64,000 nucleotides of DNA from Candidatus Omnitrophota bacterium (lineage in GTDB: Bacteria > Omnitrophota > Gorgyraeia > Aquiviventales > Aquiviventaceae), in contig JACQHR010000011.1 in the NCBI GenBank assembly GCA_016198905.1, forward strand, positions 7,427 to 71,426. The letters run 5' to 3'. Under the pieces are notes generated by a model, which was not told where the DNA came from, made no database searches, and saw nothing but the letters and a program-made list of their open reading frames with translations. A program made the position numbers and the translations under genes. This document shows, in pieces, positions 28,275 through 60,952 of the stretch (position 1 is the first letter of the stretch; each line of letters opens with the position of its first letter).

Positions 28275-28357
28275 TGTGTGCTACTCCTCTCGTGAGAAGA
28301 AACGATGAATGAGCGAGTCCAGCGCTAAGCACAAAGCACAAAGTAAAAACTGGTCTT

Positions 28358-28391: not shown

Positions 28392-28655
28392 CTCGGTGGA
28401 GAGAGTCAGGTTGCCTTGAATCACTCACGACCATACTCGATTTTAGCCATCGAACCCCCTCGTGTCAATATCGTAGGCGGGGCCTGTCAGGGGGCTTGGC
28501 TGCGCCGCACCGCTTGGTGCGCCCCGGCGCGGCGCATCCGCCCTGCGACCGAGCCCGGGTACCCAGCGAAGCTGGGTGGGCGACGGAAGTGCCGGAAGCC
28601 GCAGGCTACCGGCCCACCCGCCCAATTCGTCATGTGTCCCAGATTCCCGCTATTC

Positions 28656-29894
28656 TCAGTCTCGAGCCTTGCCGTCCCACGGGATTTCCTTCAGAAACGG
28701 ATAATGCTCCCTTACGAATGTAGTTTGCCGAGGAACACAGGTAATTACAACTTTAGTTATATCAATTTCACCAGAGATCCGATCATCCGCTCTGCTATAG
28801 AATGTGACTGTTTCGACCTCATCTTTGTGTTGTTTCCTCATAAGGGCCGAGAGTAGAGCATCGTTTTTCTTCGATTTCCAGATCTGACCTACCACGAATT
28901 CACCCTTTTTGAGAGTCTTTAGCGTCTTGATGGATGCGTCTGGACTAGTCGAGATCGATTGGCCTTCCGCAAGCCTTCCTAGAAACGAGAAACCTTCTCC
29001 GGCTCCTGAGGTAATTTTAACGTCATCCTCTAGTGCAGTTACCTTGAATTCATATAGTAGCCAAAAATTTATGGCCAACGGAGTCCAAGGAGCGCTCTGG
29101 ACTCGCACGGCTAACTCAACCAGGCTTTTCAAACAATAGGCAACTGTTTGCTCGGTCCAATTTCCCGGATGCCCATATGGGTCTTGTTGCCAATTGACCG
29201 ACAGTTGCCCGGAAGGCTCCTCGGTAATACGGGGTAGAAAATCTTGAAGGCATAGAAAACTATTTGCGTCAACACCGAATGGCATGAGTGCAGTAGCATC
29301 CGTCGCGCGCCCCACACCTACAGGAATGCCACGAATCGACGGGTTGTCAGAAGTCTTGATCAAATAGAACAGAGCACGCGCGAGCAGTTCAAGAGCTTCC
29401 TTATGTCTGCGATCACGATCTGCCTGCTTGGCCTCCGCTATTAGTGTCGCTATCTGTTCATCCTCCAAGAGAGCGGAGTCATCAATGTCGACTAGTGTTC
29501 GACCGAGATGCGCCTTGCATGCGTTCGAGATATGATCGAAGGTATCTCGTCCAACAGTTGCCCACTCATCAACGTTGGGTAATTGGCCCTGATGTTTGAT
29601 CGCAACACGTTGAAGATTGAGCCGCTGAATAAAGGCCGAAGGAGGTAGATCTACTTTAGCTTCGTTATGAAGCGTACCAGAATAATCAATGATGCCGAAA
29701 TTATGGGGCGGCTTCTTAGGCATATTAGGCGTATAACCAAGATGATCGACTATGGCAGATAGGGCCAATTCCGCCGCAGTATGCGCCACAAGGACGTGCC
29801 TGGCTACTTCGTGAGCGTTCTTCGTTTGCACGAAACGGATCTCACCTAAAAACGATTTACAAATAAGGAGCCGCTGAACAACATCTGGTCGCAT
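28656..29894 (-). CDS. Orphan hypothetical protein in an AT-richer island
   Basis: 412-aa ORF with ordinary, coding-like amino-acid composition. 60-nt lines I counted inside it are about 37-45% GC, against clearly GC-rich flanks. I recognise no domain. Confidence 0.6.
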   Translation of the reverse strand: MRPDVVQRLLICKSFLGEIRFVQTKNAHEVARHVLVAHTAAELALSAIVDHLGYTPNMPKKPPHNFGIIDYSGTLHNEAKVDLPPSAFIQRLNLQRVAIKHQGQLPNVDEWATVGRDTFDHISNACKAHLGRTLVDIDDSALLEDEQIATLIAEAKQADRDRRHKEALELLARALFYLIKTSDNPSIRGIPVGVGRATDATALMPFGVDANSFLCLQDFLPRITEEPSGQLSVNWQQDPYGHPGNWTEQTVAYCLKSLVELAVRVQSAPWTPLAINFWLLYEFKVTALEDDVKITSGAGEGFSFLGRLAEGQSISTSPDASIKTLKTLKKGEFVVGQIWKSKKNDALLSALMRKQHKDEVETVTFYSRADDRISGEIDITKVVITCVPRQTTFVREHYPFLKEIPWDGKARD

Positions 29895-29941
29895 GTAAAG
29901 TAATTCTCTAGGCTTGTGAGTTGCGCCACAGAAGCAAATCA

Positions 29942-30043
29942 GTGCCGCTCTAAATAGTGTCGTCTAAGGGCTGGGTCAGCACATGTTAGTCGGGTCTATT
30001 TAGGAAGATCGGTGCCGTCCTAAATAGTGTCGTCTAAGAGCTG
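29942..30043. repeat. Two 32-bp direct repeats (29/32 identical), 70-bp period, upstream of the orphan gene
   Basis: GTGCCGCTCTAAATAGTGTCGTCTAAGGGCTG (29942-29973) and GTGCCGTCCTAAATAGTGTCGTCTAAGAGCTG (30012-30043). The spacer holds CTATTTAGGA, the inverse of TCCTAAATAG. Confidence 0.8.
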
Positions 30044-49884: not shown

Positions 49885-52017
49885 TTATGGAGCTGTGCCG
49901 AGGTCGTGCATCCAGATCTCAGAGCGCTTGGTGTTCGAATTGTACTCGAACCACACGATCCGTTCGCCGGAGATTTGCCCTGTATAATATTCAGCCATGT
50001 TGGGACGCGTCAGCACTTGCTGTGTCTGTCCGGTGCTGATCCGATACAGGAAGATGCCTGAGCCAGCCGCCCAGATAACTCGATCGCCTGAGATGTCTGC
50101 CCATTTTGCACCACGACTCAAGGGGAGCGGTAAGGCAGGGCGGTTCGGGTTCGAAAAGTCATAGAGCGATACGCTGTTCCCAGCCAGCCAGACCGCGCGG
50201 TTACCGTCAAAGGAAGGCTGCCACGCATTGTTACTGGTCGTCAATGGGATCGGGCTGCATTGGCCCGATCCAGGAATCAGACAGGTAAAGATATTCTTAT
50301 TTGTCGTGCCGCCAATCCTATACGGGAACACTAGGCGGGAGCCCTCCACCTCGACCTCATCGTTGATCGGAAAGCCATCTCTGAAATCCGTCAGTCGTTG
50401 CTCCGGACATTGGTTTGTCCTCGGATCATAGGCGCAGGTGTAGATGTCTTCGGCGGTGTCTTTGTAGCCGTGATCGTTGATGAAAAATGAGTTGCCTAGA
50501 TAAACGATACGGTTCCCCGACATCGTTGGGACGTCCGGGGAACTCCGCGGAGCCGGCAGGATGAGCTGCGGTGGGCAGGTCCCCGCCTCGCGGTTGTAAG
50601 TACAGATATAGAGAGCCTCTACCCCTGTGGGGGCGTTATTGACCCAGACGATGCGGTTGTTGTCGCTGACAAACGGCCGTTCGCCGAAGGCGATTTGGGA
50701 AATCCACATCACGCGTGGCTCGACGGGTCGCTCCGCATCATAGAGGTAGATATCCCCTGGAGTTGCGGGCTGCGAATAGGGTACAAGGTGGCGCGTATCC
50801 CCCCATGCGACGAGTGGGCCATCAATCGACAGGGCTTGCGGGTCGGCACCATCATCGCTGATGCGCTTGGTGCTCGGCGGTCGCGCGACTTGGGGTTGGA
50901 CGGTGACTGTGACGATACGCTGAGCTTTCAGCGCTCCATCGTTGGCCACGATGCGAATCTTATAGAGTCCCGGCGTCGCTGGAAACGTCACCACGGTGTC
51001 ATGGATTCCGGACACGGGAGTGCTCGTGAAGGTTTTCCGTTTGTTCGAAAACGTGACACCCGTGACACCAGCGCACGCAGGACCGCTCTTGCACTTCCAG
51101 ACGCTCACGAGACTAGACTTCGGGTGACCATCATCGGTGATGTTCGCGCTCAGATTGACCGTATTCGTGGGTAACGTGATTGTCTGCTGCCGATATTTTG
51201 GGTTGATCGTCACTGTCGGTGCCGTATTCGGAGGCGTGACGGTGACTTGCACATCATCCTCGGCGTAGAGGCTTCCGTTCGAGGCGCGGATGCGGAACAC
51301 GTAAGTCCCAAGGTCCGTGAAGGTCAGCTGAAGATCCTTTGAAGTTGTGTCTCCTAACTGCACGGAGTTTGGCCCGCTCACCTTGCTCCAGGCGAAAGTG
51401 GTCGCGTTCTGTGCCGTGGCATGCAGGGTGGTGCCGACGGATTGCCCAACTGGCCGTTCCAAGGTCTGGTCCTTCCCCGCGTTCACGGTGGGGGGAGTGG
51501 GAGTCCCGGTGACTGTCACGCTAACGGTCGCAGTCGTTTGCAGCTCTCCATCATTGGCGGTCAGCGCCAAGATATAGGGCTGCGTCCCGGCGGTGGAGAA
51601 TTGAATAGCGTGCGCCCCCCTGGAGTTGGAGAGGGTCTCGAAACACTTGCTGGGATCGTTGGGATAATTGGGATCACAGAAGCGCATAGTCCCCGGCCCA
51701 CTCTGCTTGCTCCAGGTCAAGGTGAAGTTTGCTCCAGGGGGTTTGTCATCACTGACACTGCCATTCAGGTTCACAAATGCGCTTTGCCCGAACGGGATCG
51801 TGGTTTGCTCCACATTCCCGCTGTCCGTTTCGATCCACGCCTTGACGGTGGGAGGCAGGTTTACCGGAACGGGATCATACTGCAGCTCGGCCAGGCCTTG
51901 TCCGTTAAGATCGTCGGCTGCTTGAACAAGAGTGGATCCAGCGGAGAGGCCGATGACGGCGAGACTGATACGAAGAGCGCGAAGAACGTGCGAAGAGTGA
52001 CACGGTCTGCGTCGCAT
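49885..52017 (-). CDS. Secreted protein with PKD/Ig-like repeats and a C-terminal beta-propeller-like repeat region
   Basis: 710 aa with a signal peptide. Repeated W(S)K.SGP..(V/M) Ig/PKD-type units, then recurring G(N/D/E)R(I/V/A)VW blades. Confidence 0.6.
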   Translation of the reverse strand: MRRRPCHSSHVLRALRISLAVIGLSAGSTLVQAADDLNGQGLAELQYDPVPVNLPPTVKAWIETDSGNVEQTTIPFGQSAFVNLNGSVSDDKPPGANFTLTWSKQSGPGTMRFCDPNYPNDPSKCFETLSNSRGAHAIQFSTAGTQPYILALTANDGELQTTATVSVTVTGTPTPPTVNAGKDQTLERPVGQSVGTTLHATAQNATTFAWSKVSGPNSVQLGDTTSKDLQLTFTDLGTYVFRIRASNGSLYAEDDVQVTVTPPNTAPTVTINPKYRQQTITLPTNTVNLSANITDDGHPKSSLVSVWKCKSGPACAGVTGVTFSNKRKTFTSTPVSGIHDTVVTFPATPGLYKIRIVANDGALKAQRIVTVTVQPQVARPPSTKRISDDGADPQALSIDGPLVAWGDTRHLVPYSQPATPGDIYLYDAERPVEPRVMWISQIAFGERPFVSDNNRIVWVNNAPTGVEALYICTYNREAGTCPPQLILPAPRSSPDVPTMSGNRIVYLGNSFFINDHGYKDTAEDIYTCAYDPRTNQCPEQRLTDFRDGFPINDEVEVEGSRLVFPYRIGGTTNKNIFTCLIPGSGQCSPIPLTTSNNAWQPSFDGNRAVWLAGNSVSLYDFSNPNRPALPLPLSRGAKWADISGDRVIWAAGSGIFLYRISTGQTQQVLTRPNMAEYYTGQISGERIVWFEYNSNTKRSEIWMHDLGTAP

Positions 52018-52173
52018 CTATGTGCTTCTCCTCTGATGAATAAAAATGCCGGATTGCTTTTCGGCAACCCGGCGATCCTCAAGGGACCCGTGGCTTTGCG
52101 GCCCTACCTTGCGGTAGGTGTGCCTCCAACCGTTGAAGCGGCTGGGTCCATCGTCGTGCGATGGATTTCTCGT

Positions 52174-52548
52174 CTACCACTGCGTGTCAGAGAGCGCGGC
52201 CTGCCCATCAATATCCATCGAGAGGATATGACGGTAGCCGACGCAAAAGATCGTGCGTTCCCACACGACATAGAAATGTCCGAGCACTTTGTACACGACG
52301 CGTTCCCCTCCGGTATCCGGATTGAGGTCTTTGGTGACGAAGACTTGCCGAGGGGACACGGGGTCGAGGTTCTTGGCCCACGCGATCGAATCGCACATGG
52401 AAGGCAGGACGGTCTGCGATTTCACACGGTAGGTGCAGCGGCGCAGGACCCGGGTGGTGTACTCGCCTTGCTGCACGTGCTCGCTGACGACGCAGTCTCG
52501 TTTGAGCCAATCCGAGGACGTCAAGTTGCGGACGACGATATCTCTCAT
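52174..52548 (-). CDS. Hypothetical protein, second gene of an ATGA-coupled pair
   Basis: 124 aa from ATG 52548 (MRDIVVRNLTSSDW..). The upstream part of the 249-aa track ORF is Arg/Ala-rich and looks like a wrong-frame read-through. Confidence 0.5.
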   Translation of the reverse strand: MRDIVVRNLTSSDWLKRDCVVSEHVQQGEYTTRVLRRCTYRVKSQTVLPSMCDSIAWAKNLDPVSPRQVFVTKDLNPDTGGERVVYKVLGHFYVVWERTIFCVGYRHILSMDIDGQAALSDTQW

Positions 52549-52865
52549 GGGCTCTGATCCTGAAAGGAGAGGTCGCACTGAAAGTCTTCGTTCAACCGGT
52601 GCAGCTCGAAGGCGAGCATCACGAGCCGCAGCTTCAGCGTGGAGGTGTGTGTCTTCTTCCAAGAGGAATAGACATCGAGGAACGCATCCAACGTGCGTTC
52701 GAAGCCCAGCTTTCGTTCGTACACTTCGAGCTCTTTCAAGAAGCGTTTGAACCGCGCTTCGGACACTTCGTACGCGCTGGGTGTGGCTTTGATATGCATC
52801 GGTCGCTGAAACATCGCTGTTGGCTCCACGCTCCACCTCATATGGAAGCGAAATGGCCGAACCAC
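52545..52865 (-). CDS. Hypothetical helical protein, first gene of the ATGA-coupled pair
   Basis: 106 aa from GTG 52865. An alternative ATG at 52814 (MFQRPMHIK) has GGAG upstream. K/E/F-rich coding-like composition. The stop overlaps the next start (ATGA at 52545-52548). Confidence 0.45.
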   Translation of the reverse strand: MVRPFRFHMRWSVEPTAMFQRPMHIKATPSAYEVSEARFKRFLKELEVYERKLGFERTLDAFLDVYSSWKKTHTSTLKLRLVMLAFELHRLNEDFQCDLSFQDQSP

Positions 52866-53025
52866 CTAATATGGCAGCCCGGCCTGCGTTCGTTGCACTA
52901 TCGGGCTGAGGGACCCGCATCAACTATTATCAACTAATATCTTTATATTACGTTTTAAAAGTATCATATATAGTAAGCAGAATACAAGGGTGCCAGAATT
53001 ATTTCCTCAAGGGAAGCTCAACGAC

Positions 53026-55965
53026 TTAGCGGGTCTGGAAGGCGAATGGGCAGATGGTCTGGAACGCGCACCAGTGGCAGGCAAATTCCTGTGGTGTGGC
53101 TTCGAAGGCACGAGCACGAATCCCCTGCCCGGCCTCTTGGAGCACCTGTTTGGCCCGATCAAGATCATCTTCGTCGAACACGGCTCGTCCCGTCACCCCT
53201 GTTTCCAAAAAGCGAAGTTCGACGCGAGCGGGGAGCTCTCCATGAAGCGTGCGCCACGCCAGCGCATAGATGAGCAGCTGAAGGGACTCTTTCGCGCGCC
53301 GATCGGCGGCAGCTTGATCGCGCACCTCTGAGGATTTGTAGTCAATGATCACCACATCGTTGCCTTCGCGGTCGACGCGGTCCCAGCGGCCGACAACCAG
53401 GAGATCGTCGAGCAAGAACCTGAACTTTTCTTCGATGAGCAGCGGCGTTTCAGGAGCCTCCTGCTGTTGCGCATAAAACCGCTCGAGCGTGGCCCGTCCT
53501 TGCGCGCGCCGCAGCGTTTCATGTTCGCGCGTGAGAAATCCCTCCGCGTTCCACGACTGATCGAACACGGCCAGAAGCTCCTCCTTCGTCATCGGCTGGG
53601 CGTGGAGCCGGCGCCGGAAAAACAGCTCGACGGCTTTGTGCAGCGCGGCTCCATACGCGACCAGATGGTGCCGCATCACGGGAATGCGCAGCACATGACT
53701 GTACCGGTACTTGAGGGGACAGGTGCGGTAGTCGTCGATTCCATGCGCGTCGACCCGCAAGACTCTCTTGGACGTGGGCGTCTCTCTGACAGGCAGTGGC
53801 GCCTGGAGCGCCGAGCGGTTGATCAATTCGCGCGCGGTCGCCTTCTTCGCGGGAGGACTTGGCGCGGCAAGATCCAGCGCTTCGAGGACGAATTGGCTGA
53901 CCTTTCGCATGCTCTTGCCGCCATGATCATAGGCGCAGGTCAGGTGCAGCTCGTCTTTTGCGCGCGTCATGCCGACATAAAAGAGGCGGCGCTCTTCTTG
54001 CAAATGGTAGTCGCCCATCGGGAGAATGTCTTTGATGAGCGGTTCGGGCAATTCGATGAGCTCTCGACGCTGCGGGGTGGGAAACCGTCCCTGCACCAAG
54101 CCGACCAGAAAGACCACCGGGAACTCCAAGCCTTTCGCCTTATGGAGGGTCAGCACGCTCACCCGGTCAGCCCAGACGTCATCGTCCTCGAACGGCTCAT
54201 TCCCCAGCGCCTGAAACAGCTCCAGATGCCGGACCACCTCCGGCAGCGAAGAACCCGCAAGCTCTTCGAGCCGCCGCAGATGGTGAAAAAACCTCGCAAT
54301 GGTTTGAAGCCGCGCGCCGTCCCCCAGCTCATCGGCCCGGCTCAGCGCGGCCAGCAGCCCTCGATCCGTCAGCCAACGGTACAGGAGCTGCCCGCTGGAA
54401 TGCGTCCGGGCCAGCTCGAGCAACCGGCCGACGTCGCCCAGGAGGGCCAGCAGGCTCTCCCGACCGGCCGGTGAAAGCGTGTCGAGGAACGCCGGGTCTG
54501 TGGCGAGCTGCTCCAATACCGCGCGCAGACTCTGATGGGTCTTGGCGGCATGGGCCAGCACGCCTGTCAGGTCCTGCATGGGGCACGTGTACAGCGGGGA
54601 GCTGGCCACGTGGTACCAGCTGAGACTGTCATCAGGATCGGCGAGCGTTTTGATGCAGGACAGCAACAGCTTGCTCTCCTCGCGGGCAAACAGGCCGCTC
54701 GCTCCGCTGAACTGCCACGGCACGCCGGCGACGTTGAGCGCGCGCAGGAACAGATCCGCCTCGCGATTGGACCGCACAAGAATGGCATGATCACCCGCTC
54801 GCCGGGCACCGGCTTCAATGGCCTGCCGAATGGTCCGCGCCACCCAATCGGCCTCGCTGGACGCCGTGTCAAACACGTGAAATTGCGGCGGATCCTGCCG
54901 CGCGCTCGCGCGGGCGACGAGGCGCTTATCGATGCCCTGGCGGCACTCCAGGCGGTCAGGATCGTTGAACCGGATGAGCCGGTACGCGCAGTCCAAGAGA
55001 GGCTGCGGCGAGCGGAAGTTTTCCGTCAAGACCACCGTCTGCACCTGCGCGTAGTGCTCGAGGAATTTGACGACGTTGCTGATCGCCGCTCCTCGCCATT
55101 TATAGATGCTTTGATCGTCGTCCGCGACCACGGTCACGTTATCAGTGGGGGCGGCCAACAGTTGCAGCAGGCGAAACTGCGCGTAATTGGTATCCTGGAA
55201 CTCATCCACGAGGACATAGCGGATCTGCGACTTGACGGCGGCAAGAATGTCGGGGTGGCGCTCAAGCAACTGGATGGCCAGCAGCACTTGATCGCCGAAA
55301 TCGACGAGGTCGTGCTGTGCGAGCAGCTCCTCATAGGCCGCATACACCTGAGCCAGCTCCCGTATGCGACTGGCCTGTGTGCGTGTGGCCTCACCGGGTG
55401 CTCCGGCGGCGTCAGCGCGCGCAAGACGCTGCGCGTACGCAAGAAACTCGTCGGGTCCCACCGCCTCATCCTTCGCGCGGGAGAAGACGCTGGTGATGAC
55501 TTCGAGAAAGCGTGTGGGGTCGGTCAGTGGCCGCAACTCCTGCAGGGGCAGCTCGAAGAGATGTTGGCGCAGGAAGACCAGCTGCTCGGCCTTTGAGAGG
55601 ACGCGAAACTGCGAGGAGCGCCCGCTCTTCAACGCATACTCACGCAGCAGCCCATCCCCGAAGGCATGAAACGTCTTGAGGGCCACGTCGACGTAGCCGT
55701 ACGGCAAGAGCAGATCGACGCGCTCCTCCATCTCCGCCGCGGCTTTTTCGGTGAAGGTTAGGGCGAGGATGTCATCCGGGCGGGCGCGCTGTGTCGCAAT
55801 GAGCCATGCGATGCGGCGCGTGATGACGGTGGTTTTCCCCGTTCCCGCCCCCGCGATGATGAGGAGCGGGCCCTGCTCATGCAGGATGGCGTCACGCTGG
55901 GTTGGGGTGAGCTCGTCGAGCAGCAGCTCGCCGGGAGGGACGAGGGTATCAGAACGAGTCGTCAG
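53026..55965 (-). CDS. UvrD/PcrA-type helicase fused to a C-terminal Cas4/AddB-like PD-(D/E)XK nuclease with a Cys cluster
   Basis: The track starts at 55731 (MEERV). The same frame stays open upstream and encodes LDELTPTQRDAILHEQGPLLIIAGAGTGKT (Walker A). No ATG/GTG/TTG is available, so the start is probably CTG 55965, overlapping the upstream stop. The C-terminus has CPLKYRY, IDYK and CHWCAFQTICP. Confidence 0.8.
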   Translation of the reverse strand: MTTRSDTLVPPGELLLDELTPTQRDAILHEQGPLLIIAGAGTGKTTVITRRIAWLIATQRARPDDILALTFTEKAAAEMEERVDLLLPYGYVDVALKTFHAFGDGLLREYALKSGRSSQFRVLSKAEQLVFLRQHLFELPLQELRPLTDPTRFLEVITSVFSRAKDEAVGPDEFLAYAQRLARADAAGAPGEATRTQASRIRELAQVYAAYEELLAQHDLVDFGDQVLLAIQLLERHPDILAAVKSQIRYVLVDEFQDTNYAQFRLLQLLAAPTDNVTVVADDDQSIYKWRGAAISNVVKFLEHYAQVQTVVLTENFRSPQPLLDCAYRLIRFNDPDRLECRQGIDKRLVARASARQDPPQFHVFDTASSEADWVARTIRQAIEAGARRAGDHAILVRSNREADLFLRALNVAGVPWQFSGASGLFAREESKLLLSCIKTLADPDDSLSWYHVASSPLYTCPMQDLTGVLAHAAKTHQSLRAVLEQLATDPAFLDTLSPAGRESLLALLGDVGRLLELARTHSSGQLLYRWLTDRGLLAALSRADELGDGARLQTIARFFHHLRRLEELAGSSLPEVVRHLELFQALGNEPFEDDDVWADRVSVLTLHKAKGLEFPVVFLVGLVQGRFPTPQRRELIELPEPLIKDILPMGDYHLQEERRLFYVGMTRAKDELHLTCAYDHGGKSMRKVSQFVLEALDLAAPSPPAKKATARELINRSALQAPLPVRETPTSKRVLRVDAHGIDDYRTCPLKYRYSHVLRIPVMRHHLVAYGAALHKAVELFFRRRLHAQPMTKEELLAVFDQSWNAEGFLTREHETLRRAQGRATLERFYAQQQEAPETPLLIEEKFRFLLDDLLVVGRWDRVDREGNDVVIIDYKSSEVRDQAAADRRAKESLQLLIYALAWRTLHGELPARVELRFLETGVTGRAVFDEDDLDRAKQVLQEAGQGIRARAFEATPQEFACHWCAFQTICPFAFQTR

Positions 55966-56711
55966 TGAGCCTCAGCGTTGGTGACGTGAAGAGGAAAGAC
56001 AAACTCCAGGTTCTTCTGCGGGAGCTCGTTGGCATCAAACGCCGTTTTCAGGTTGGCGACGTGCAAGCGCATGGACGTCGCCTGCTGATCCGGGCTCCAG
56101 AACGCCACGAGCCCATCATGGATCACGCCGGGATAGAGGTAGCCGGTCTGCAGTGAACATTGTTTGATGAGCGCGAAGCGGCCCTGCGGTTTCTGGGCGA
56201 ACATCCGGCCAATCGGCACGCTCACGCCAAAGTACCCTGGCCGAGCCTCCTCTAAGAGACCTCTCGTGATGGTCTGCGCGGGCCGGCGGGTATCCGCCAA
56301 GGCATCCACGTAATCGACATCGAGCGGGCTGTACTGGTTGCCGCGGTCATCGACGAGCACAAAATCCCATGGGCTGACCCGGACGCGTTGGTCGCTGGTA
56401 TTGGCGACTTTGATGTAGAACACCAAATTCTCAGGAAAATACGGATTTTGCCCTGCGTACTCGCCGAAGAGTTCGCGCTTGCGGAAGAAATCAGTCAGGT
56501 ACTCTTTCGTCGCCACCGTGACGGTGACCGAGATTTTCTCCTTGTCCTGTGTTTGGGTGACAGGCTCCAGCCCCCAGTCGGTTCGCTTGGCAAGCGTGAG
56601 CATCTCGGCCAGCGGGCCGCGGGCTTTGCGTTCCAGGAGCAATGAGGGTTTGCGTGTGGCGCACCCTGCAACGACCACCATTCCCAGCAGACAGATCGCA
56701 ACCCGGCGCAT
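55962..56711 (-). CDS. Hypothetical lipoprotein
   Basis: Start MRRVAICLLGMVVVAGCATRK at 56711 (lipobox). Beta-rich remainder. Confidence 0.5.
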   Translation of the reverse strand: MRRVAICLLGMVVVAGCATRKPSLLLERKARGPLAEMLTLAKRTDWGLEPVTQTQDKEKISVTVTVATKEYLTDFFRKRELFGEYAGQNPYFPENLVFYIKVANTSDQRVRVSPWDFVLVDDRGNQYSPLDVDYVDALADTRRPAQTITRGLLEEARPGYFGVSVPIGRMFAQKPQGRFALIKQCSLQTGYLYPGVIHDGLVAFWSPDQQATSMRLHVANLKTAFDANELPQKNLEFVFPLHVTNAEAH

Positions 56712-56748
56712 CGTTCCTCCGTCGTCGTGGTTCGGCATCGCCAATCCC

Positions 56749-57939
56749 TCAGACCCGTTCAAAGGGATCGAACAGTTTCTTGTACTCTTCCAGGCAGTAC
56801 CGGTCGGTCATCCCCGCGATGTAGTCGCAGACCACGCGATACGGATCGTCCCCTCGCGTAATCCGCGACCGTGTGGTATTGGGCAATTGCTCCGGCTTCT
56901 TCAGGTAAAGGTGGAAGAGCTCGCTGATGAAACGCTTGGCTTTATCGGCCATGCGGGCCACGCGGTAGTGGTGGTAAAACTGCGTCCACAGGAGGCCTTT
57001 CAACGGTGTGCGCAACTGCTGCGTCTGGGCACTGAACGCGACGAGTCGCTCGGTGCAATGCCGCACATCTTCCACAGATCCGATGCGCAGTCGCTTGAGC
57101 CGTTCGATCGTCGCCTCAACCAAATCGGTAACCTCTCGATTAATCAGCATGCGGATGATCTGGTAGCGGCGGATATCCGGATCAAGATGGATCCCGCCCG
57201 CTTCAACAGCCTCGCACGCTTGCTGCCAGAGCGCGATGCCGCCCAGCTCATCCTCCTTCAGGATACCCGATGCGAGTCCATCGTCAAGATCATGATTGTC
57301 GTACGCGATTTCATCCGCGACATCCGCGATCTGGCTCTCCAACAGCGGAGCGACGGTAGGATCCAGGGCCGCCTGGACATCAGGCTGGTTGTACGGCGTG
57401 CGGTGCTTGTTGATGCTCTCGCGGACTTCCCACGTCAGGTTGAGTCCTGGGAATCCGGGGTAGCGCGCCTCGATCAGGTCCACGATGCGCAAGCCTTGAA
57501 TGTTATGGTCAAACCCGCCGTGCCCTTCCATGAGCTCGCGCAACGCGTCCTCCCCGGCATGTCCAAAGGGCGGATGGCCGATGTCGTGCGCCAGCGACAC
57601 CACCTCGACCAAATCCTCATTCAGGCGCAGGATGCGGGCGATCGACACGGCGATTTGGGCGACTTCCAGCGTGTGCGTCAAGCGCGTGCGGTAATGATCG
57701 CCCTCATGATTGACGAACACCTGGGTCTTGTACTCGAGACGGCGAAAGGCCGTGGTGTGGATGATGCGATCGCGGTCCCGGCGATACGCGGTGCGAAACG
57801 CATCCTCCGATTCCGGGTGTTGCCGGCCCTTGCTCTCGCGACTCTTCATCGCGTAGGGCGCTAGCCACTGCGCCTCGCGCGCTTCGAGCTCTTGGCGTGA
57901 CGCCAGGATAGGAGTCGGATCAGCCGCCAGCGCGGTCAT
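56749..57939 (-). CDS. dGTP triphosphohydrolase-like HD-domain protein
   Basis: 396 aa with RLTHTLEVAQIA and HDIGHPPFGH HD motifs. Confidence 0.85.
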   Translation of the reverse strand: MTALAADPTPILASRQELEAREAQWLAPYAMKSRESKGRQHPESEDAFRTAYRRDRDRIIHTTAFRRLEYKTQVFVNHEGDHYRTRLTHTLEVAQIAVSIARILRLNEDLVEVVSLAHDIGHPPFGHAGEDALRELMEGHGGFDHNIQGLRIVDLIEARYPGFPGLNLTWEVRESINKHRTPYNQPDVQAALDPTVAPLLESQIADVADEIAYDNHDLDDGLASGILKEDELGGIALWQQACEAVEAGGIHLDPDIRRYQIIRMLINREVTDLVEATIERLKRLRIGSVEDVRHCTERLVAFSAQTQQLRTPLKGLLWTQFYHHYRVARMADKAKRFISELFHLYLKKPEQLPNTTRSRITRGDDPYRVVCDYIAGMTDRYCLEEYKKLFDPFERV

Positions 57940-58436
57940 CGTCGACGCCGTGACGTCGCAAGCATCGTATAGAGCTCATCCAGCGACTGTGAGATCACTT
58001 TGGTGTGGGCGATGATGGGCATCACGTTCGTGTCTCCCTGCCAGCGCGGCACCACATGCAGGTGCAGATGTCCGGGAATCCCCGCGCCGGCAACGCGGCC
58101 GAGATTCATTCCCACATTGAACCCCTGGGCATGCAGTAGACGGGTGAGTCGCGTCATGATGCGTTGGCTCATCTGCAGCATCTCGCTCCATTCTGCGGGG
58201 GCGAGCGTCGTCAGTGTCCCCACATGGCGGTAGGGGGCGATCATGACGTGCCCGTTGTTGTAGGGGTAGAGATTAAGGAGGGTGAAGACGTGCCGACCTC
58301 GAGCCACGACGTAATGTGCGCGATCCGCCCGGGAGCGTTTCGCCGCACAAAAGATGCAGCGACGCGGCTGCGGATGCGCGATGAAGCAGTTGCGCCAGGG
58401 CGCCCACAATCGCTGGAGGTGCGCCATCGTCGTCAC
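57936..58436 (-). CDS. HIT-family nucleotide hydrolase/transferase
   Basis: PGHLHLHVVPRW histidine triad and NLYPYNNGHVMI. Confidence 0.85.
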   Translation of the reverse strand: MTTMAHLQRLWAPWRNCFIAHPQPRRCIFCAAKRSRADRAHYVVARGRHVFTLLNLYPYNNGHVMIAPYRHVGTLTTLAPAEWSEMLQMSQRIMTRLTRLLHAQGFNVGMNLGRVAGAGIPGHLHLHVVPRWQGDTNVMPIIAHTKVISQSLDELYTMLATSRRRR

Positions 58437-60031
58437 GCGCGTCCGTAGAGTTCAAGCAACAGGCTCAAGTCGTCCGGTCCCCACACCCACATGTTCGCGG
58501 TCTTCGCGAGCAAGCGCGCATTCGCATCCATAGGCGTCTTCGTGATGACGACTTTTCGGGAGGGCTTAGGCGCCTGCGCGCGGCAAAACGCGTCGAACCG
58601 CGCAATCGCCTGCTCATCGACGCCGGTTTCCTGGACCGTCACGCACCAGCGCTTGCCCTCGGCGTCAGCCACGAGGTACGGCTCCATGCTCCGGTCTTCA
58701 ACAGGCTTCGCGCGGTGGATGGTCTGAAAGCGCGGCAGCCGCCCGGTTTTCAGGTCAAGCGACACGGTGTCATCCGAGAACTTTGCGAACAAGCCGGCGA
58801 TCTGCTCGGAAAACGACAGTTGATGCGCGCGAACCCACTCGTTCCAGAGCCCGCGCAGAGCCTGATTGAACCGCTGCCTGGTCGCGGGAGCGTCGGTGCG
58901 CGCATCGCACCACTGCGAGGCCAGCACGGTGGAGAGCCAACAACGCAGTAAGGGGTCGGTCACGATCCAGCACATCCCGTTGCGTTGCGCCAAATCCTGC
59001 TCGACCAACAGTTGCAGCGCGTCGGTGAGGCCGCTGCGGCCGATGCGTTTGCCGATCTCGGTGGCGGTTCGCGCGCCATTGGCCACCTGCAAAAGCGCTT
59101 CCAACGCTCTTGATCCCCCGCGCCCTCGCGTCGCGAGGTGACCGGTCCGCGCAAGACAGGTCTGATGGAGCGCGCCTTCAGCGCTGCCCACCACATCCCA
59201 GGCGGCCTGGAGAAAAAGCGCTTCGTGCAATTCGACGCTGTTGCTCAGGGTCGCCCGCTCTTTGAGCCGATTGACGAAGACGGTGAGATACCACGGATAG
59301 GCGCCAAGCCAGTCCATGAGGAAGTTCGTCATGCCCTTGGGCCGCCTAATCCCGCGCAGCTCCTGCTGCATCCAGGCCATCACGGTCGGCGCATCCAGCG
59401 CCTCGAGCGTCAGCAGCTCGAACTGGCCGAAGAGCAGCTGCAGTCGTTCGCGCAAAATCATCCTGGCCCGGTACAGCGACGAGCTCGACAGGATGAAGAG
59501 CGTGGTCGGCCACGTCATGACGCGCTTGCCCAGCTCATGAAAGGCGTGCGTGAGTCCTAACTCTTCCAAGAGAAGAAACTCGTCCAAGATGAGCACGCAG
59601 GACATGCCCCGCTCCTGGCTGACGATCGGGATGAGATCCAACGTCCGCGTGAACGCCTCCCCATACTGCCGCCTGGTCAGCAGCCCCTCGATCGATCGGA
59701 TCGCCATGGCAAGACGCGGCGATGAGCCCTCGATCTGTTGCGCGAGCGGTTCGAGTGAACGCAAGGCCCCACCTCTGACCGGCGCTGCATCAGGGAGCAT
59801 CGCCTGGAGAATGGCGCACACGAATCGCTGTAGGAAGCTGCCGCACGACTCACGGTACAGCGGACACGAGATGATGAGCACCCCTGAGGGAGGATGCGTA
59901 AGCAGGTGTTGCAGCTGGTACGTCTTGCCGCTGCCTTGGGGACCTAGGAGGGCGAGATTGTGGCGAAACCCTTCTGTGAAGGCTTGGAGGTGCTGCTGCA
60001 GCCGCTGACTCAACTCCGGTCGAAGATTCAT
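58433..60031 (-). CDS. AAA-type ATPase with a C-terminal restriction-endonuclease-like (Mrr/DUF234-like) region
   Basis: 532 aa with Walker A GPQGSGKT and Walker B VLILDEF. The C-terminal ..KVVITKTPMDANARLLAKTANMWVWGPDDLSLLL resembles the tail of Mrr-type nuclease domains (inference). Confidence 0.6.
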   Translation of the reverse strand: MNLRPELSQRLQQHLQAFTEGFRHNLALLGPQGSGKTYQLQHLLTHPPSGVLIISCPLYRESCGSFLQRFVCAILQAMLPDAAPVRGGALRSLEPLAQQIEGSSPRLAMAIRSIEGLLTRRQYGEAFTRTLDLIPIVSQERGMSCVLILDEFLLLEELGLTHAFHELGKRVMTWPTTLFILSSSSLYRARMILRERLQLLFGQFELLTLEALDAPTVMAWMQQELRGIRRPKGMTNFLMDWLGAYPWYLTVFVNRLKERATLSNSVELHEALFLQAAWDVVGSAEGALHQTCLARTGHLATRGRGGSRALEALLQVANGARTATEIGKRIGRSGLTDALQLLVEQDLAQRNGMCWIVTDPLLRCWLSTVLASQWCDARTDAPATRQRFNQALRGLWNEWVRAHQLSFSEQIAGLFAKFSDDTVSLDLKTGRLPRFQTIHRAKPVEDRSMEPYLVADAEGKRWCVTVQETGVDEQAIARFDAFCRAQAPKPSRKVVITKTPMDANARLLAKTANMWVWGPDDLSLLLELYGRA

Positions 60032-60669
60032 TCCACGGGAAGGAGGCTTACGGTGTGACGAGGTTTGCTGCCATACCGGACCTCGAAGTAGATCGGCTGC
60101 ACCCCGACGCTTCCCAAGGGAACGCCCTGGCGCAGCGTCGATCCTGGGGCCACGAGCAGTTGCTCAAGCCTGGCGTAGACGCTCAGGGAGCCATCCCAGT
60201 GATCGACAATCACCGTTTTGCCCCACCCTGAGAGGTCTCGGGCAGCCACTGCGACGCGTCCGCTGCGCGAGGCTCGCACCAACGTGCCGGGGGGTGCTGC
60301 GATTTCAATCCCGTACGGGGCCCCAGCGTTCTTGACGCGGCCCCGCACCGGCCACAAGAACTGCCTGGACTCTTGCGGCAATGGAATGAACAGGCGCTGG
60401 CCAACGGCGAGTGGTATCGCGTGAGACAGTCGGTTGGCTGAGAGAAGCGCTTCGGGGCTTATGCCGTAGGAGCGAGCAATGCGCCACACGGTTTCCCCTC
60501 TGCTGACGATGTGATAGGAACCGGCGAGGCTTGGCAGAGAGGCTCGGGACTGCACGGCAGGAGGTGCGGTCATCGGAGTCATGGAAGAAGCGGCGCAACC
60601 GGCGATGGCAAGACACGCCAGCGAGACGACTCCTCTTTCAGATATCGTTCGCATGAACCTGAACCTCAA
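60028..60669 (-). CDS. LysM-domain M23 peptidase (NlpD-like)
   Basis: Lipoprotein-like signal (LAIAGCAAS), LysM (YHIVSRGETVWRIARSYGISPEALLSANRL) and an M23 core (GIEIAAPPGTLVRASRSGRV). Confidence 0.85.
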   Translation of the reverse strand: MRFRFMRTISERGVVSLACLAIAGCAASSMTPMTAPPAVQSRASLPSLAGSYHIVSRGETVWRIARSYGISPEALLSANRLSHAIPLAVGQRLFIPLPQESRQFLWPVRGRVKNAGAPYGIEIAAPPGTLVRASRSGRVAVAARDLSGWGKTVIVDHWDGSLSVYARLEQLLVAPGSTLRQGVPLGSVGVQPIYFEVRYGSKPRHTVSLLPVE

Positions 60670-60710
60670 AGACGGGGTCAGACCCTATTCGCATCGCTCG
60701 TTCTTGAATC

Positions 60711-60899
60711 GAGAAGTAACGAGCGGGTAGCGGGAATCGGTGCCTCCGCTCGCCTCTGGCTCGCTCCGGTCACCGCCCGCGCCTCCCGTGGTGGTCGCCA
60801 CTCGCTATTCGCTCGCGGCTCCGCTTGATGACCAAAGTCGGCGCTCCCTTCGATTCCCGCTACTACTATTGAGAAGTAATCAGCGGGTAGCGGGAATCG
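60711..60899. repeat. 29-bp direct duplication of the tRNA-Gly 3' end plus flank, bracketing a ~130-bp GC-rich insert
   Basis: GAGAAGTAACGAGCGGGTAGCGGGAATCG (60711-60739) versus GAGAAGTAATCAGCGGGTAGCGGGAATCG (60871-60899). The inverse copy CGATTCCCGCTAC lies at 60851-60863. Confidence 0.85.
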
Positions 60900-60952
60900 A
60901 ACCCGCGTAACTAGCTTGGGAAGCTAGCGCACTACCACTGTGCTATACCCGC
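60882..60952 (-). tRNA. tRNA-Gly (anticodon CCC)
   Basis: Hand-folded cloverleaf: GCGGGTA acceptor, GCAC/GTGC D-stem, CTAGC-TTCCCAA-GCTAG anticodon arm, GCGGG-TTCGATT-CCCGC T-arm. Confidence 0.9.

What the first reader, a model, noticed from the sequence alone, without database searches (positions are those of the whole stretch)
53026..60669. Six tightly coupled genes: M23 peptidase, ATPase-nuclease-like, HIT, dGTPase-like, lipoprotein, UvrD-Cas4-like helicase-nuclease
The junctions are ATGA (60028-60031), GTGA or a 6-nt gap (58433-58436), ATGA (57936-57939), a short gap or overlap (56711-56762) and CTGA (55962-55965). This indicates a single translationally coupled operon.

Three members have nucleic-acid or nucleotide-attacking potential:
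- an AAA ATPase whose C-terminus resembles an Mrr/DUF234-type nuclease tail
- an HD dGTPase-like enzyme; dNTP depletion is an established anti-phage strategy
- a 980-aa UvrD helicase fused to a Cas4/AddB-type nuclease (CPLKYRY, IDYK, CHWCAFQTICP)

Each gene alone can be housekeeping. Their strict coupling with envelope proteins is not a described system, and it might represent a DNA-surveillance or defence operon.
Basis: partly seen in the sequence, partly recalled or inferred. Interest (0 to 1): 0.55.

Follow-up and report, generated by a model that had tools for sequence, protein, structure and literature searches.

The report
Conserved Omnitrophota housekeeping operon, not defence
The six tightly packed genes are real and keep this order in many Omnitrophota bacteria, but they sit at a fixed place among housekeeping genes, so they look like an ordinary mixed operon (cell wall, nucleotide clean-up, DNA repair, one unknown ATPase) rather than a new anti-phage system.

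Summary
Six minus-strand genes (53026-60669) abut or overlap as described, and all domain calls are correct.

The window comes from a Candidatus Omnitrophota MAG. The order tRNA-Gly(CCC), LysM/M23, ATPase, HIT, dGTPase, lipoprotein, UvrD-Cas4 recurs in about 90 other loci. It always lies inside a longer housekeeping block (pfk, gmhA-like, thiD2, thiE upstream; a conserved unknown gene downstream).

In deeper Omnitrophota lineages (ATPase 25-30% identical) only M23-ATPase-HIT-dGTPase persists. The lipoprotein and helicase-nuclease are absent from the locus there.

- **dGTPase:** passes NCBIfam's housekeeping equivalog and fails both anti-phage dGTPase models.
- **ATPase:** matches no PADLOC or PHROG model and nothing on plasmids or phages.
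- **ATPase architecture:** a PF01637/Orc1-Cdc6-like AAA+ domain, a winged helix, and a C-terminal domain with a weak PD-(D/E)XK fold match whose catalytic positions are not conserved.
- **M23 domain:** lacks its zinc ligands, like NlpD, EnvC and DipM.
- **Overlaps:** common across the window (18 of 45 other junctions).

Verdict: a core, probably co-transcribed housekeeping operon of mixed function, with defence unsupported. The residual interest is the uncharacterised ATPase, found here only in MAGs labelled Omnitrophota (a few labelled Planctomycetales). A probable CTG start on the helicase-nuclease is also notable.

The parts
60882..60952 (-). tRNA-Gly(CCC). It lies immediately upstream of the LysM/M23 gene, and here and in 22 of 25 related loci checked it is CCC on the same strand (UCC in two, opposite strand in one). 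It marks the 5' boundary of the unit and separates it from thiE.
   Evidence: ARAGORN; Rfam tRNA 74.8 bits.
60708..60739 (-). 32-nt direct repeat of the 3' end of tRNA-Gly (91% identical to 60868-60899, spacing 160 nt). It lies in the spacer between the tRNA and the M23 gene and may be a remnant of an integration event.
   Evidence: the repeat finder; sequence.
60028..60654 (-). NlpD/DipM/EnvC-like lipoprotein. It has a signal peptide with lipobox (LAIAGC), a LysM domain and a degenerate M23 (LytM) domain that lacks the zinc ligands. It is predicted to activate cell-wall hydrolases rather than act as a peptidase. An upstream TTG at 60669 is the alternative start.
   Evidence: Pfam LysM 2.2e-12 and Peptidase_M23 5.8e-16. 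NCBIfam best hits are ActS, DipM, NlpD and EnvC, all below cut-off. Closest solved M23 domains are DipM and EnvC. The HxxxD, HxH and third-His positions read PYGIEI, IYFEV and YARL.
58433..60031 (-). ATPase family found only in MAGs labelled Omnitrophota (532 aa). It has an AAA+ domain (Walker A GPQGSGKT, Walker B LILDEF), a helical lid, a winged helix (about aa 303-356) and a C-terminal alpha/beta domain (aa 405-532). The C-terminal domain has a PD-(D/E)XK-like fold without a conserved catalytic triad.
   Evidence: Pfam AAA_16/AAA_22, weak. AF2 model pLDDT 88.5. Foldseek best hits 2qen and 2fna (PF01637 archaeal ATPases), then Orc1/Cdc6. C-terminal model pLDDT 89.6, with top hits VC1899, EndoMS, AF1548, Cdn1, MspJI and Can2 at E 3e-3 to 0.1. 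Family of 526 50%-identity clusters, nearly all full length. Residue conservation.
57936..58436 (-). HIT-family nucleotide hydrolase or transferase (166 aa) with an intact histidine triad (GHLHLHVVPR). It is closest to the Ap4A phosphorylase / ATP adenylyltransferase branch.
   Evidence: Pfam HIT 9e-14. NCBIfam NF052622 scores 157 bits, below its cut-off of 290. Motif seen in the translation.
56749..57939 (-). Housekeeping-type dGTP (dNTP) triphosphohydrolase (396 aa, HD plus HD_assoc). It is the most conserved gene of the cluster: 61-94% identity within the clade holding the six-gene block and 49-68% in deeper lineages.
   Evidence: NCBIfam NF002326 equivalog 484 bits, above its cut-off of 390. 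Anti-phage models NF041026 (248, below 400) and NF003701 (209, below 383) fail. Identities.
55962..56711 (-). Lipoprotein of unknown function (249 aa from ATG 56711). The lipobox Cys and the following SSLLLER.ARGP motif are conserved, as are the DDRGNQY, ARPGYFG and DGLIAFW motifs. It always precedes the helicase-nuclease in the lineages that carry both.
   Evidence: No Pfam, NCBIfam, PADLOC, PHROG or PDB match. Lipobox conservation. Alignment A4. Remote homologues sit next to lptF/lptG.
53026..55965 (-). UvrD/PcrA-type SF1 helicase fused to a Cas4/AddB-type PD-(D/E)XK nuclease with four Fe-S cysteines (979 aa if translation starts at CTG 55965). All catalytic motifs are intact.
   Evidence: Pfam UvrD-helicase 3e-72, UvrD_C 3.5e-46, PDDEXK_1 1e-36. 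The motor is closest to PcrA and UvrD, then AdnB. Walker A and B, D862, D875-Y-K877, Q896..Y900 and C749/C963/C966/C972 are invariant in 24 orthologues. Start-codon analysis.
52855..52884 (-). G+C-rich hairpin (12 pairs) followed by a T-rich tail. It lies about 140 nt downstream of the helicase stop, after a 100-nt A+T-rich spacer (52924-53025). It is a candidate terminator or 3' boundary of the unit.
   Evidence: Consensus scan (the count of such sites is not above shuffles). Sequence.

Best explanation
This is a core-genome housekeeping operon of an Omnitrophota bacterium, not a dedicated multi-protein system.

Transcription probably starts at or just downstream of the conserved tRNA-Gly(CCC) and runs through six genes with separate jobs:
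1. An NlpD/DipM-like lipoprotein with a catalytically dead LytM domain, which activates septal cell-wall hydrolases.
2. An AAA+ ATPase seen here only in Omnitrophota-labelled MAGs. It has an Orc1/Cdc6- or PF01637-like core, a winged helix and a degenerate Mrr-type domain. It most likely acts as an ATP-dependent DNA-binding switch; its target is unknown.
3. A HIT enzyme that clears dinucleoside polyphosphates or adenylylated nucleotides.
4. A housekeeping dGTPase/dNTPase that trims dNTP pools.
5. An envelope lipoprotein.
6. A UvrD-Cas4 helicase-nuclease that unwinds and resects DNA ends or stalled intermediates for repair or recombination.

The stop/start overlaps reflect the compact gene packing of this genome, together with co-expression of the old four-gene core (M23, ATPase, HIT, dGTPase).

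Shown here: gene content, domain identities, intact or degenerate active sites, and synteny. Inferred: co-transcription, the individual biochemical roles, and the absence of a joint mechanism.
For: **Fixed locus in a conserved housekeeping block**
- In 28 species-level genomes the order SIS, cytidylyltransferase, ThiD2, ThiE, M23, ATPase, HIT, dGTPase, lipoprotein, HelNuc, g52174 is kept wherever the contig is long enough.
- The flanks are PFK, GmhA-like, thiamine genes, GpsA, homoserine dehydrogenase and threonine synthase.
- Another 59 metagenome loci show dGTPase-lipoprotein-HelNuc.

**Deep lineages**
- Lineages whose ATPase is 24-32% identical keep pfk..thiE(-thiC)-tRNA-Gly-M23-ATPase-(Metallophos_2)-HIT-dGTPase. 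The block then continues into GAF/HD_5, SPOR, SH3_3 and M50 genes, or into mur/ftsW genes.
- They have no lipoprotein or helicase at the locus.
- Three divergent lineages (L032, L037, L039) do have all six genes.

**Individual genes**
- dGTPase: housekeeping equivalog passed, anti-phage models failed; 61-94% identity across species.
- ATPase: no PADLOC or PHROG hit and no plasmid or phage hit.
- ATPase motifs: Walker A and B are conserved in 159 family representatives, but the nuclease-like positions are not.
- M23 domain: closest to the inactive DipM and EnvC, with zinc ligands replaced.
- Lipoprotein: the lipobox is conserved, and remote homologues lie by lptF/lptG without a helicase.

**Genome-wide features**
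- Overlapping junctions are common across the window, including between unrelated genes such as pfk and the SIS gene.
- GC content is uniform.
Against: - Conservation of the M23-ATPase-HIT-dGTPase order, with estimated stop/start overlaps at many junctions, holds between lineages whose ATPases share only about 25-30% identity. One locus whose flanks changed still kept ATPase-HIT (P0277). This could mean selection for co-expression because of a shared function, which 'mixed housekeeping operon' does not explain.
- The PADLOC dGTPase HMM scores 338 bits over its full length, so an automated defence finder might flag that gene.
- UvrD-Cas4 fusions have been linked by context to defence systems in other phyla (PMC5704561).
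- The function of the ATPase is not established.
- No transcript data exist.
- All comparisons rest on MAGs.
Confidence: 0.7

Rival explanations
1. A functionally integrated but non-defence module. In this reading the AAA+/winged-helix ATPase works together with the adjacent nucleotide hydrolases: HIT, dGTPase, and in other lineages Metallophos_2 and GAF-HD_5. In this clade it would also work with the UvrD-Cas4 enzyme. The module would couple DNA replication or repair, or dNTP and alarmone levels, to cell division (NlpD-like, SPOR and mur/ftsW neighbours).
For: - M23-ATPase-HIT-dGTPase is kept with tight junctions across the deepest divergences sampled. M23 to ATPase is 15 nt or less in 28 of 37 loci. 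ATPase to HIT is 15 nt or less in 24 of 34. HIT to dGTPase overlaps in 27 of 32.
- ATPase-HIT adjacency survives where the flanks differ.
- Up to four different nucleotide phosphohydrolase families line up behind the ATPase in other lineages.
- The fold is Orc1/Cdc6-like with a winged helix.
Against: - The whole region, including unrelated genes (pfk, the heptose gene, thi genes), is equally syntenic, so slow genome rearrangement explains the conservation just as well.
- Only one rearranged context was found.
- There is no evidence of physical interaction.
- The lipoprotein and the M23 protein are exported and cannot contact cytoplasmic partners.
Confidence: 0.2
2. A chromosomally fixed anti-phage or DNA-surveillance system. 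The dGTPase would deplete dNTPs, the UvrD-Cas4 enzyme would degrade invading DNA, and the ATPase with its nuclease-like tail would act as sensor or effector.
For: - PADLOC dGTPase HMM scores 338 bits. There are generic GajB-type and ThsC-type hits for the helicase and HIT.
- UvrD-Cas4 fusions are associated with type III RM and Dcm/Vsr contexts elsewhere (PMC5704561).
- The ATPase tail has a PD-(D/E)XK-like fold, and STAND/NLR-type ATPases appear among the weaker fold matches.
Against: - The locus is fixed and was found in every related genome locus examined, flanked by housekeeping genes. It shows no island features and has uniform GC.
- The anti-phage dGTPase models are below cut-off while the housekeeping equivalog passes.
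- The ATPase, M23 protein and lipoprotein have no PADLOC hit.
- No GajA-like partner and no RM, Dcm or Vsr genes appear among the neighbours whose domains were scanned. g52174 and two small ORFs have no family match.
- Nuclease catalytic residues are not conserved in the ATPase tail.
- The dGTPase is under strong purifying selection (61-94% identity), which is unlike fast-evolving defence genes.
- The helicase is absent from the locus in deeper lineages.
Confidence: 0.07
3. The apparent operon is partly an annotation or assembly artefact. The helicase-nuclease would be a 5'-truncated pseudogene or carry a sequencing error (it has no canonical start), so the cluster would really have five genes.
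For: - There is no ATG, GTG or TTG between the in-frame stop (55972-55974) and the Walker A motif.
- The first ATG, at 55731, lies after Walker A.
- Most orthologues start with ATG.
Against: - The frame is open from 55971 through the Q motif and Walker A.
- A CTG with a GAGG 4 nt upstream sits where orthologues start.
- L022 also lacks any canonical start.
- All catalytic motifs are intact.
- Identity to orthologues runs from residue 1-15 to the end.
Confidence: 0.03

Closest known systems
UvrD-Cas4-like (pfam12705) helicase-nuclease fusion family described by Hudaiberdiev et al. 2017 (PMC5704561)
   Same: - N-terminal UvrD/PcrA-type SF1 helicase.
- C-terminal PF12705 RecB/Cas4-type nuclease with four cysteines.
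- All motifs are intact.
   Different: - That family's recurrent contexts are type III RM or Dcm/Vsr. Here the gene sits after a lipoprotein and a housekeeping dGTPase at a fixed core locus.
- Membership of the same monophyletic branch was not tested by phylogeny.
AdnAB / AddAB / RecBCD end-resection helicase-nucleases
   Same: - A UvrD-like motor followed by a RecB-type nuclease on one polypeptide.
- AdnB is the closest solved helicase-nuclease (171 bits).
   Different: - There is a single subunit at the locus with no second helicase-nuclease gene beside it.
- The motor is closer to PcrA/UvrD (287 bits) than to AdnB or AddA.
- NCBIfam AddA and RecB models score far below cut-off.
NlpD / EnvC / DipM LytM-factor activators of cell-wall hydrolases
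   Same: - Lipoprotein signal.
- LysM domain.
- M23 domain with the zinc ligands lost.
- DipM and EnvC are the closest solved M23 domains.
   Different: - It scores below every NCBIfam equivalog cut-off.
- At 208 aa it is shorter than NlpD or DipM.
- Its cognate hydrolase is unknown.
Archaeal-type PF01637 (ATPase_2) Walker ATPases such as PAB2304 (2qen) and SSO1545 (2fna), and Orc1/Cdc6
   Same: - AAA+ core, lid and winged helix.
- These are the best Foldseek matches (E about 5e-8).
- 16 of 29 family members hit PF01637.
   Different: - The window protein itself does not reach PF01637 at E below 0.01.
- It carries an extra 130-aa C-terminal PD-(D/E)XK-like domain not covered by those structures.
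- It was seen only in Omnitrophota-labelled MAGs.
Housekeeping dGTPase-like dNTP triphosphohydrolases (NCBIfam NF002326 / PRK01286), as opposed to anti-phage dGTPases (NF041026, NF003701)
   Same: HD plus HD_assoc architecture; it passes the NF002326 equivalog cut-off (484 against 390).
   Different: It fails both anti-phage models. Its distribution is not patchy like that of a defence island.
Gabija (GajA-GajB)
   Same: The helicase hits GajB-type UvrD HMMs.
   Different: - The hits cover only the generic helicase core.
- There is no GajA (OLD-family ATPase-TOPRIM). The adjacent ATPase matches no PADLOC model.

Membership tests
Anti-phage dGTPase (NCBIfam NF041026 / NF003701) | Scores above the curated cut-off of the anti-phage dGTPase model | tested here: not met
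   NF041026 scores 247.8 bits against a cut-off of 400. NF003701 scores 209.2 against 383. The housekeeping equivalog NF002326 scores 484.3 against 390 and passes.
Anti-phage dGTPase (NCBIfam NF041026 / NF003701) | Patchy distribution in variable defence-island contexts | tested here: not met
   The gene is present at the same position, between HIT (or the ATPase) and the next gene, in all loci long enough to show it, among about 100 examined. Flanks are housekeeping genes.
Anti-phage dGTPase (NCBIfam NF041026 / NF003701) | Match to the PADLOC dGTPase HMM | tested here: inconclusive
   PDLC02374 scores 338 bits at full length. The model has no curated cut-off here, and it is not known whether it separates housekeeping paralogues.
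Gabija | GajA (OLD-family ATPase plus TOPRIM nuclease) encoded next to a GajB UvrD-like helicase | tested here: not met
   The ATPase and the other four proteins have no GajA hit. The ATPase has no PADLOC hit at E 0.01 or better. GajB hits cover only the generic helicase core.
UvrD-Cas4-like fusion (pfam12705 branch, PMC5704561) | UvrD SF1 helicase fused N-terminally to a PF12705 Cas4-like nuclease with RecB motifs and four Cys | tested here: met
   PF00580, PF13361 and PF12705 hits. D862, DYK 875-877, Q896..Y900 and C749/963/966/972 are invariant in 24 orthologues.
UvrD-Cas4-like fusion (pfam12705 branch, PMC5704561) | Typical neighbourhood of type III RM (Mod/Res) or Dcm/Vsr genes | tested here: not met
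   Neighbours are a dGTPase, a lipoprotein, an unknown 249-aa ORF and a PKD-domain protein.
UvrD-Cas4-like fusion (pfam12705 branch, PMC5704561) | Falls inside the monophyletic helicase clade of the fusions | not tested
   No reference sequences of that clade were available for a tree.
AddAB / AdnAB / RecBCD | Two (or three) cognate subunits encoded together; scores above the AddA, RecB or AdnB family thresholds | tested here: not met
   There is no second helicase-nuclease gene in the locus. AddA scores 161 bits against a cut-off of 708. RecB scores 144 against 696. The rest of the genome could not be searched.
LytM-factor activators (NlpD/EnvC/DipM) | M23 fold with the catalytic zinc ligands (HxxxD, HxH) replaced, plus an envelope targeting signal and a PG-binding domain | tested here: met
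   Lipobox IAGC, LysM and M23. Alignment to DipM shows PYGIEI at the HxxxD position and IYFEV at the HxH position. The motif definitions come from established knowledge of the M23 family.
PF01637 ATPase_2 / Orc1-Cdc6-like AAA+ | AAA+ core with Walker A and B, followed by a lid and a winged helix; significant match to the family model | tested here: inconclusive
   Fold: 2qen and 2fna are the best matches at E about 5e-8. Walker A and B are conserved. Sequence: the window protein hits only AAA_16, at 24.8 bits against a cut-off of 32.6. 16 of 29 relatives hit PF01637 at E 0.01 or better.
Mrr-type / PD-(D/E)XK nuclease (ATPase C-terminal domain) | Restriction-endonuclease-like alpha/beta fold | tested here: inconclusive
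Mrr-type / PD-(D/E)XK nuclease (ATPase C-terminal domain) | Conserved catalytic D...(D/E)xK residues | tested here: not met
   Candidate position 456 is D, E, Q or G among close relatives. Across 159 representatives it is R, K, Q, E or H. Positions 467 and 468 are variable and no ExK motif is present.
STAND/Avs-type defence NTPases | STAND NTPase with sensor repeats and an effector domain; match to defence HMMs | tested here: not met
   No PADLOC hit. There is no repeat or sensor domain in the 532-aa model. NLR-type structures are only weaker matches to the core.
HIT superfamily | Histidine triad HxHxHxx | tested here: met
   Pfam HIT 9e-14. GHLHLHVV is present in the translation.

The most novel reading that the evidence does not exclude
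The old core M23-ATPase-HIT-dGTPase may be a true functional unit. It is kept with estimated stop/start overlaps at many junctions between Omnitrophota lineages whose ATPases are only about 25-30% identical. In this reading an Omnitrophota-restricted DNA-binding AAA+ switch with a dead Mrr-type domain acts together with nucleotide hydrolases. In this clade it would also act with the UvrD-Cas4 helicase-nuclease. The unit would be a chromosomally fixed DNA-surveillance or dNTP-control system, possibly tied to cell division.
Probability: 0.12. Interest if true: 0.6.

Novelty: new member of a known kind. Interest (0 to 1): 0.25.

Why it matters
The result removes a false lead. A plausible-looking 'ATPase-nuclease plus dGTPase plus helicase-nuclease' operon is not a new defence system, and automated defence finders may flag its dGTPase wrongly.

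It also leaves three modest, testable items:
- A well-conserved, uncharacterised ATPase family found only in MAGs labelled Omnitrophota. It combines an Orc1/Cdc6-like core, a winged helix and a degenerate nuclease fold, and is always encoded between an NlpD-like gene and nucleotide hydrolases.
- A housekeeping context for the UvrD-Cas4 fusion family, which had so far been discussed mainly as defence-associated.
- A probable CTG-initiated, translationally coupled helicase gene.

Tried and rejected
**Unavailable or failed tools**
- The look-up of the window's own ATPase returned only a 2.6-kb Logan contig, not the NCBI annotation. How PGAP called the helicase start therefore remains unknown.

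**Searches that found nothing useful**
- A profile search of PDB sequences with the ATPase alignment gave only P-loop noise.
- A PDB sequence search for the lipoprotein gave nothing.
- PHROGs gave nothing for the ATPase, lipoprotein or g52174.
- tblastn of the ATPase against plasmids and phages found no match.
- Literature searches on Omnitrophota gene clusters and on PF01637/DUF234 returned nothing relevant. One query was rejected for syntax.
- The promoter and terminator consensus scan found no more sites than shuffled sequence, so it cannot define the transcript.

**Ideas considered and rejected**
- An origin-of-replication role for the Orc1/Cdc6-like ATPase. Nearly all genes of the window are on one strand and there is no skew inversion.
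- An FtsEX-EnvC-like ATPase control of the LytM factor. The ATPase family search found no transmembrane partner domain, and no membrane-protein gene lies between the ATPase and M23 genes.

Full report
**What is in the sequence**

Six ORFs lie head to tail on the minus strand:
- 60028-60669: LysM plus M23.
- 58433-60031: ATPase, 532 aa.
- 57936-58436: HIT.
- 56749-57939: HD plus HD_assoc dGTPase.
- 55962-56762: no family match.
- 53026-55731 and upstream: UvrD helicase plus PDDEXK_1 nuclease.

The ATGA, GTGA and ATGA overlaps at 60028-60031, 58433-58436 and 57936-57939 are exact. The fourth junction is probably a 37-nt gap. The lipoprotein's signal peptide and lipobox (MRRVAICLLGMVVVAGC) begin at ATG 56711, and orthologues never overlap here (median gap 27 nt).

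The fifth junction (CTGA, 55962-55965) is real but depends on a non-canonical start. The helicase frame opens at 55971. It contains no ATG, GTG or TTG before its Q motif (LTPTQRDA) and Walker A (GAGTGKT). It does have a CTG at 55965 with GAGG 4 nt upstream. Most orthologues use an ATG at the equivalent place. L022 also has only CTG.

**Is the tight packing special?**

It is not. With longest-ORF starts, 18 of the 45 other same-strand junctions in the window overlap and 24 are 15 nt or less. These include junctions between unrelated genes such as pfk and the SIS-domain gene. Nearly the whole window is coded on the minus strand. The overlaps support co-transcription but say little about shared function.

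**Organism and conservation**

The ATPase is 100% identical to a hypothetical protein (HY352_02380) of a Candidatus Omnitrophica MAG. It has about 200 full-length homologues at 56-65% identity in the word-indexed search.

A scan of species-representative genomes gave 28 loci. All are Omnitrophota MAGs, though a few are labelled 'uncultured Planctomycetales'. tblastn shows this order wherever the contig is long enough: SIS, cytidylyltransferase, ThiD2, ThiE, M23, ATPase, HIT, dGTPase, lipoprotein, helicase-nuclease, g52174. HIT is missing in three loci.

A tRNA-Gly gene (anticodon CCC in 23 of 25 loci, UCC in two) sits directly upstream of the M23 gene in all 25 loci checked, including distant ones.

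A metagenome scan with a lipoprotein alignment added 59 loci, all showing dGTPase-lipoprotein-helicase.

The conserved block therefore extends well beyond the six genes on both sides. The flanks are housekeeping genes: PFK, GmhA-like SIS, thiamine genes, GpsA, homoserine dehydrogenase, threonine synthase. GC content is uniform. This is core-genome synteny, not a mobile or variable island.

**Deeper lineages**

A profile search of 1.84 billion representatives found 526 clusters (227 at E below 1e-30). Nearly all are about 540 aa and cover the full profile. The named ones are again Omnitrophota, and many hit PF01637.

The contexts of eleven such distant members fall into two patterns:

| Pattern | Gene order | Loci |
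|---|---|---|
| All six genes | M23, ATPase, HIT, dGTPase, lipoprotein, UvrD-PDDEXK_1 | L032 (ATPase 32% identical), L037 (46%), L039 |
| Core only | pfk..thiE-thiC-tRNA-Gly-M23-ATPase-(Metallophos_2)-(HIT)-dGTPase, then GAF/HD_5-SPOR-SH3_3-M50, or mur ligases and ftsW; no lipoprotein or helicase at the locus | L029, L030, L031, L033, L035, L036 and the P0277 contig |

L034 and L040 end too early to be assigned to either pattern.

In the P0277 contig the flanks differ, but ATPase-HIT is kept.

Estimated junctions over 40 loci show that the first four genes are usually coupled:
- M23 to ATPase is 15 nt or less in 28 of 37 loci.
- ATPase to HIT is 15 nt or less in 24 of 34.
- HIT to dGTPase overlaps in 27 of 32.
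- The lipoprotein and helicase usually have 15-60-nt spacers.

The six genes thus split in two. One part is an old core (M23, ATPase, HIT, dGTPase). The other is a lipoprotein-helicase pair seen at this locus only in the window's clade and in the L032, L037 and L039 lineages.

**The individual proteins**

*M23 protein.* Its closest solved M23 domains are DipM and EnvC, both catalytically inactive activators. Its HxxxD, HxH and third-His positions read PYGIEI, IYFEV and YARL. With a lipobox and LysM it is an NlpD-like LytM factor, not a peptidase.

*ATPase.*
- The AF2 model is confident (pLDDT 88.5).
- Residues 1 to about 395 match the archaeal Walker ATPases 2qen and 2fna, then Orc1/Cdc6.
- The separately modelled C-terminal domain (pLDDT 89.6) finds only PD-(D/E)XK proteins at the top: VC1899, EndoMS, AF1548, Cdn1, MspJI and Can2. 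These matches are weak (E 3e-3 to 0.1, TMq 0.40-0.57).
- Two of 29 relatives touch Pfam Mrr_cat.
- The positions where D and (D/E)xK should lie are not conserved. Position 456 is mostly R or K across 159 representatives. Walker A GK[ST] is invariant and Walker B D/E-E is nearly so.
It is most likely catalytically dead and serves as a binding or oligomerisation module.
- The protein has no PADLOC or PHROG hit and no tblastn match on plasmids or phages.

*HIT.* The triad is intact (GHLHLHVV). It is nearest the Ap4A phosphorylase / ATP adenylyltransferase branch.

*dGTPase.*
- It passes the NCBIfam housekeeping equivalog NF002326 (484 bits against a cut-off of 390).
- It fails both anti-phage models (248 against 400; 209 against 383).
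- It is the most conserved gene of the cluster (61-94% identity).
- The PADLOC dGTPase HMM does score 338 bits, so automated tools may flag it.

*Lipoprotein.* The lipidated Cys and an SSLLLER.ARGP motif are conserved (alignment A4). Remote homologues in unrelated marine contigs are also lipoproteins. They lie beside lptF/lptG-like permease genes, with no helicase nearby.

*Helicase-nuclease.*
- The motor is closest to PcrA/UvrD (287 bits), then AdnB.
- Walker A and B, nuclease D862, D875-Y-K877, Q896..Y900 and four cysteines are invariant in 24 orthologues. It should therefore be an active Fe-S Cas4/AddB-type helicase-nuclease.
- This fusion is a described, monophyletic but uncharacterised family. 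Its known contexts are type III RM or Dcm/Vsr, and otherwise it is stand-alone (PMC5704561). None of those partners is present here.

**Interpretation**

The most economical reading (confidence 0.7) is a core, probably co-transcribed operon of mixed housekeeping functions in a compact genome. Its jobs are:
- septal cell-wall hydrolase activation;
- an uncharacterised DNA-binding AAA+ switch;
- nucleotide clean-up (HIT, dGTPase);
- an envelope lipoprotein;
- a repair or recombination helicase-nuclease.

A non-defence functional module centred on the ATPase and the nucleotide hydrolases remains possible (0.2). The four-gene core and its couplings survive deep divergence. However, the equally strong synteny of unrelated neighbours weakens that argument.

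The defence reading (0.07) is contradicted by the fixed core locus, the dGTPase family assignment, the lack of any defence-model hit for the ATPase, the degenerate nuclease site, and the dispensability of the helicase at this locus in other lineages.

An artefact reading for the helicase start (0.03) cannot be excluded without the reads.

**Limits**

- All comparisons rest on MAG and metagenome contigs.
- Start codons in the junction survey are estimates.
- No transcript or biochemical data exist.
- Whole-genome presence or absence of other UvrD- or RecB-type enzymes could not be checked.

Noticed in passing
window 55923-55974 (-): The helicase-nuclease has no ATG, GTG or TTG between the in-frame TGA (55972-55974) and its Q motif and Walker A. 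The only plausible start is CTG 55965, which overlaps the lipoprotein stop (CTGA) and has GAGG 4 nt upstream. Most orthologues use ATG, and L022 also has only CTG. The explanation is either CTG initiation or reinitiation, or a MAG base error.
   Followed up: partly
window 60708-60739 and 60868-60899 (-): A 32-nt direct repeat (91% identical, 160 nt apart) duplicates the 3' end of tRNA-Gly(CCC) in the spacer before the M23 gene. This looks like a leftover attachment-site duplication from an integrated element. In L014 the same spacer holds a 1.7-kb insertion (7620-9314) with ORFs of no obvious function.
   Followed up: partly
window 52060-52134 (-): A c-di-GMP-I riboswitch (Rfam RF01051, 58.9 bits against a gathering score of 35) lies directly upstream of the 710-aa PKD-domain protein gene (49885-52017). 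A terminator-like hairpin at 52048-52073 overlaps its 3' end.
   Followed up: no
window 52174-52923 (-), especially 52174-52550: A conserved ORF of unknown function follows the helicase in most loci long enough to show it. Only its C-terminal 125 aa or so (from MRDIVVRNL) are well conserved (54-76% identity), so the real gene is probably much shorter than the 249-aa ORF. It has no Pfam, NCBIfam or PHROG hit.
   Followed up: partly
window 52924-53025: A 100-nt strongly A+T-rich spacer (TATATATGATACTTTTAAAACGTAATATAAAGATATTAGTTGATAATAG) lies right after the helicase stop in a genome of about 60% GC. It may be a promoter or UP-element region for the downstream gene.
   Followed up: no
L029 11629-12111, L033 6975-7457, L036 2571-3083, L031 11634-12119, L040 4950-5438: In deeper Omnitrophota lineages a Metallophos_2 phosphoesterase gene is inserted between the ATPase and HIT, and overlaps the ATPase stop in L029, L033, L036 and L040 (not L031). 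A GAF-HD_5 (HD-GYP-like) gene follows the dGTPase. Up to four different nucleotide phosphohydrolase families therefore line up behind the ATPase.
   Followed up: partly
L029 18096-19366 (-), L031 18876-20203 (-), L033 13491-14734 (-), L036 8656-10010 (-): A second, small AAA_16/AAA_22 ATPase (266-278 aa, with weak nSTAND1, TniB and SLFN-helicase-like hits) lies on the opposite strand a few kb downstream in these lineages. It has a 148-176-aa partner of unknown function, and the pair is conserved.
   Followed up: no
window 28001-30000: GC drops to 0.526 here, against 0.58-0.65 elsewhere in the window. There is also a gap in the crude gene calls around 28.9-30.0 kb. No Rfam family matched there.
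   Followed up: no
L010, L013, L018, L023, L025, L028 (record titles): Several TPA MAGs labelled 'uncultured Planctomycetales bacterium' carry the same syntenic block, at 45-62% ATPase identity, as MAGs labelled Omnitrophota. Their taxonomic labels are probably outdated or wrong.
   Followed up: no
L100 4393-5208, L103 9956-10714: Remote homologues (25-29% identity) of the cluster's lipoprotein occur in low-GC marine contigs. They share the LIDDRGNQY motif and a lipobox. They are encoded after lptF/lptG-like permease genes and a methyltransferase-like membrane protein, which suggests an outer-envelope role for the family.
   Followed up: partly
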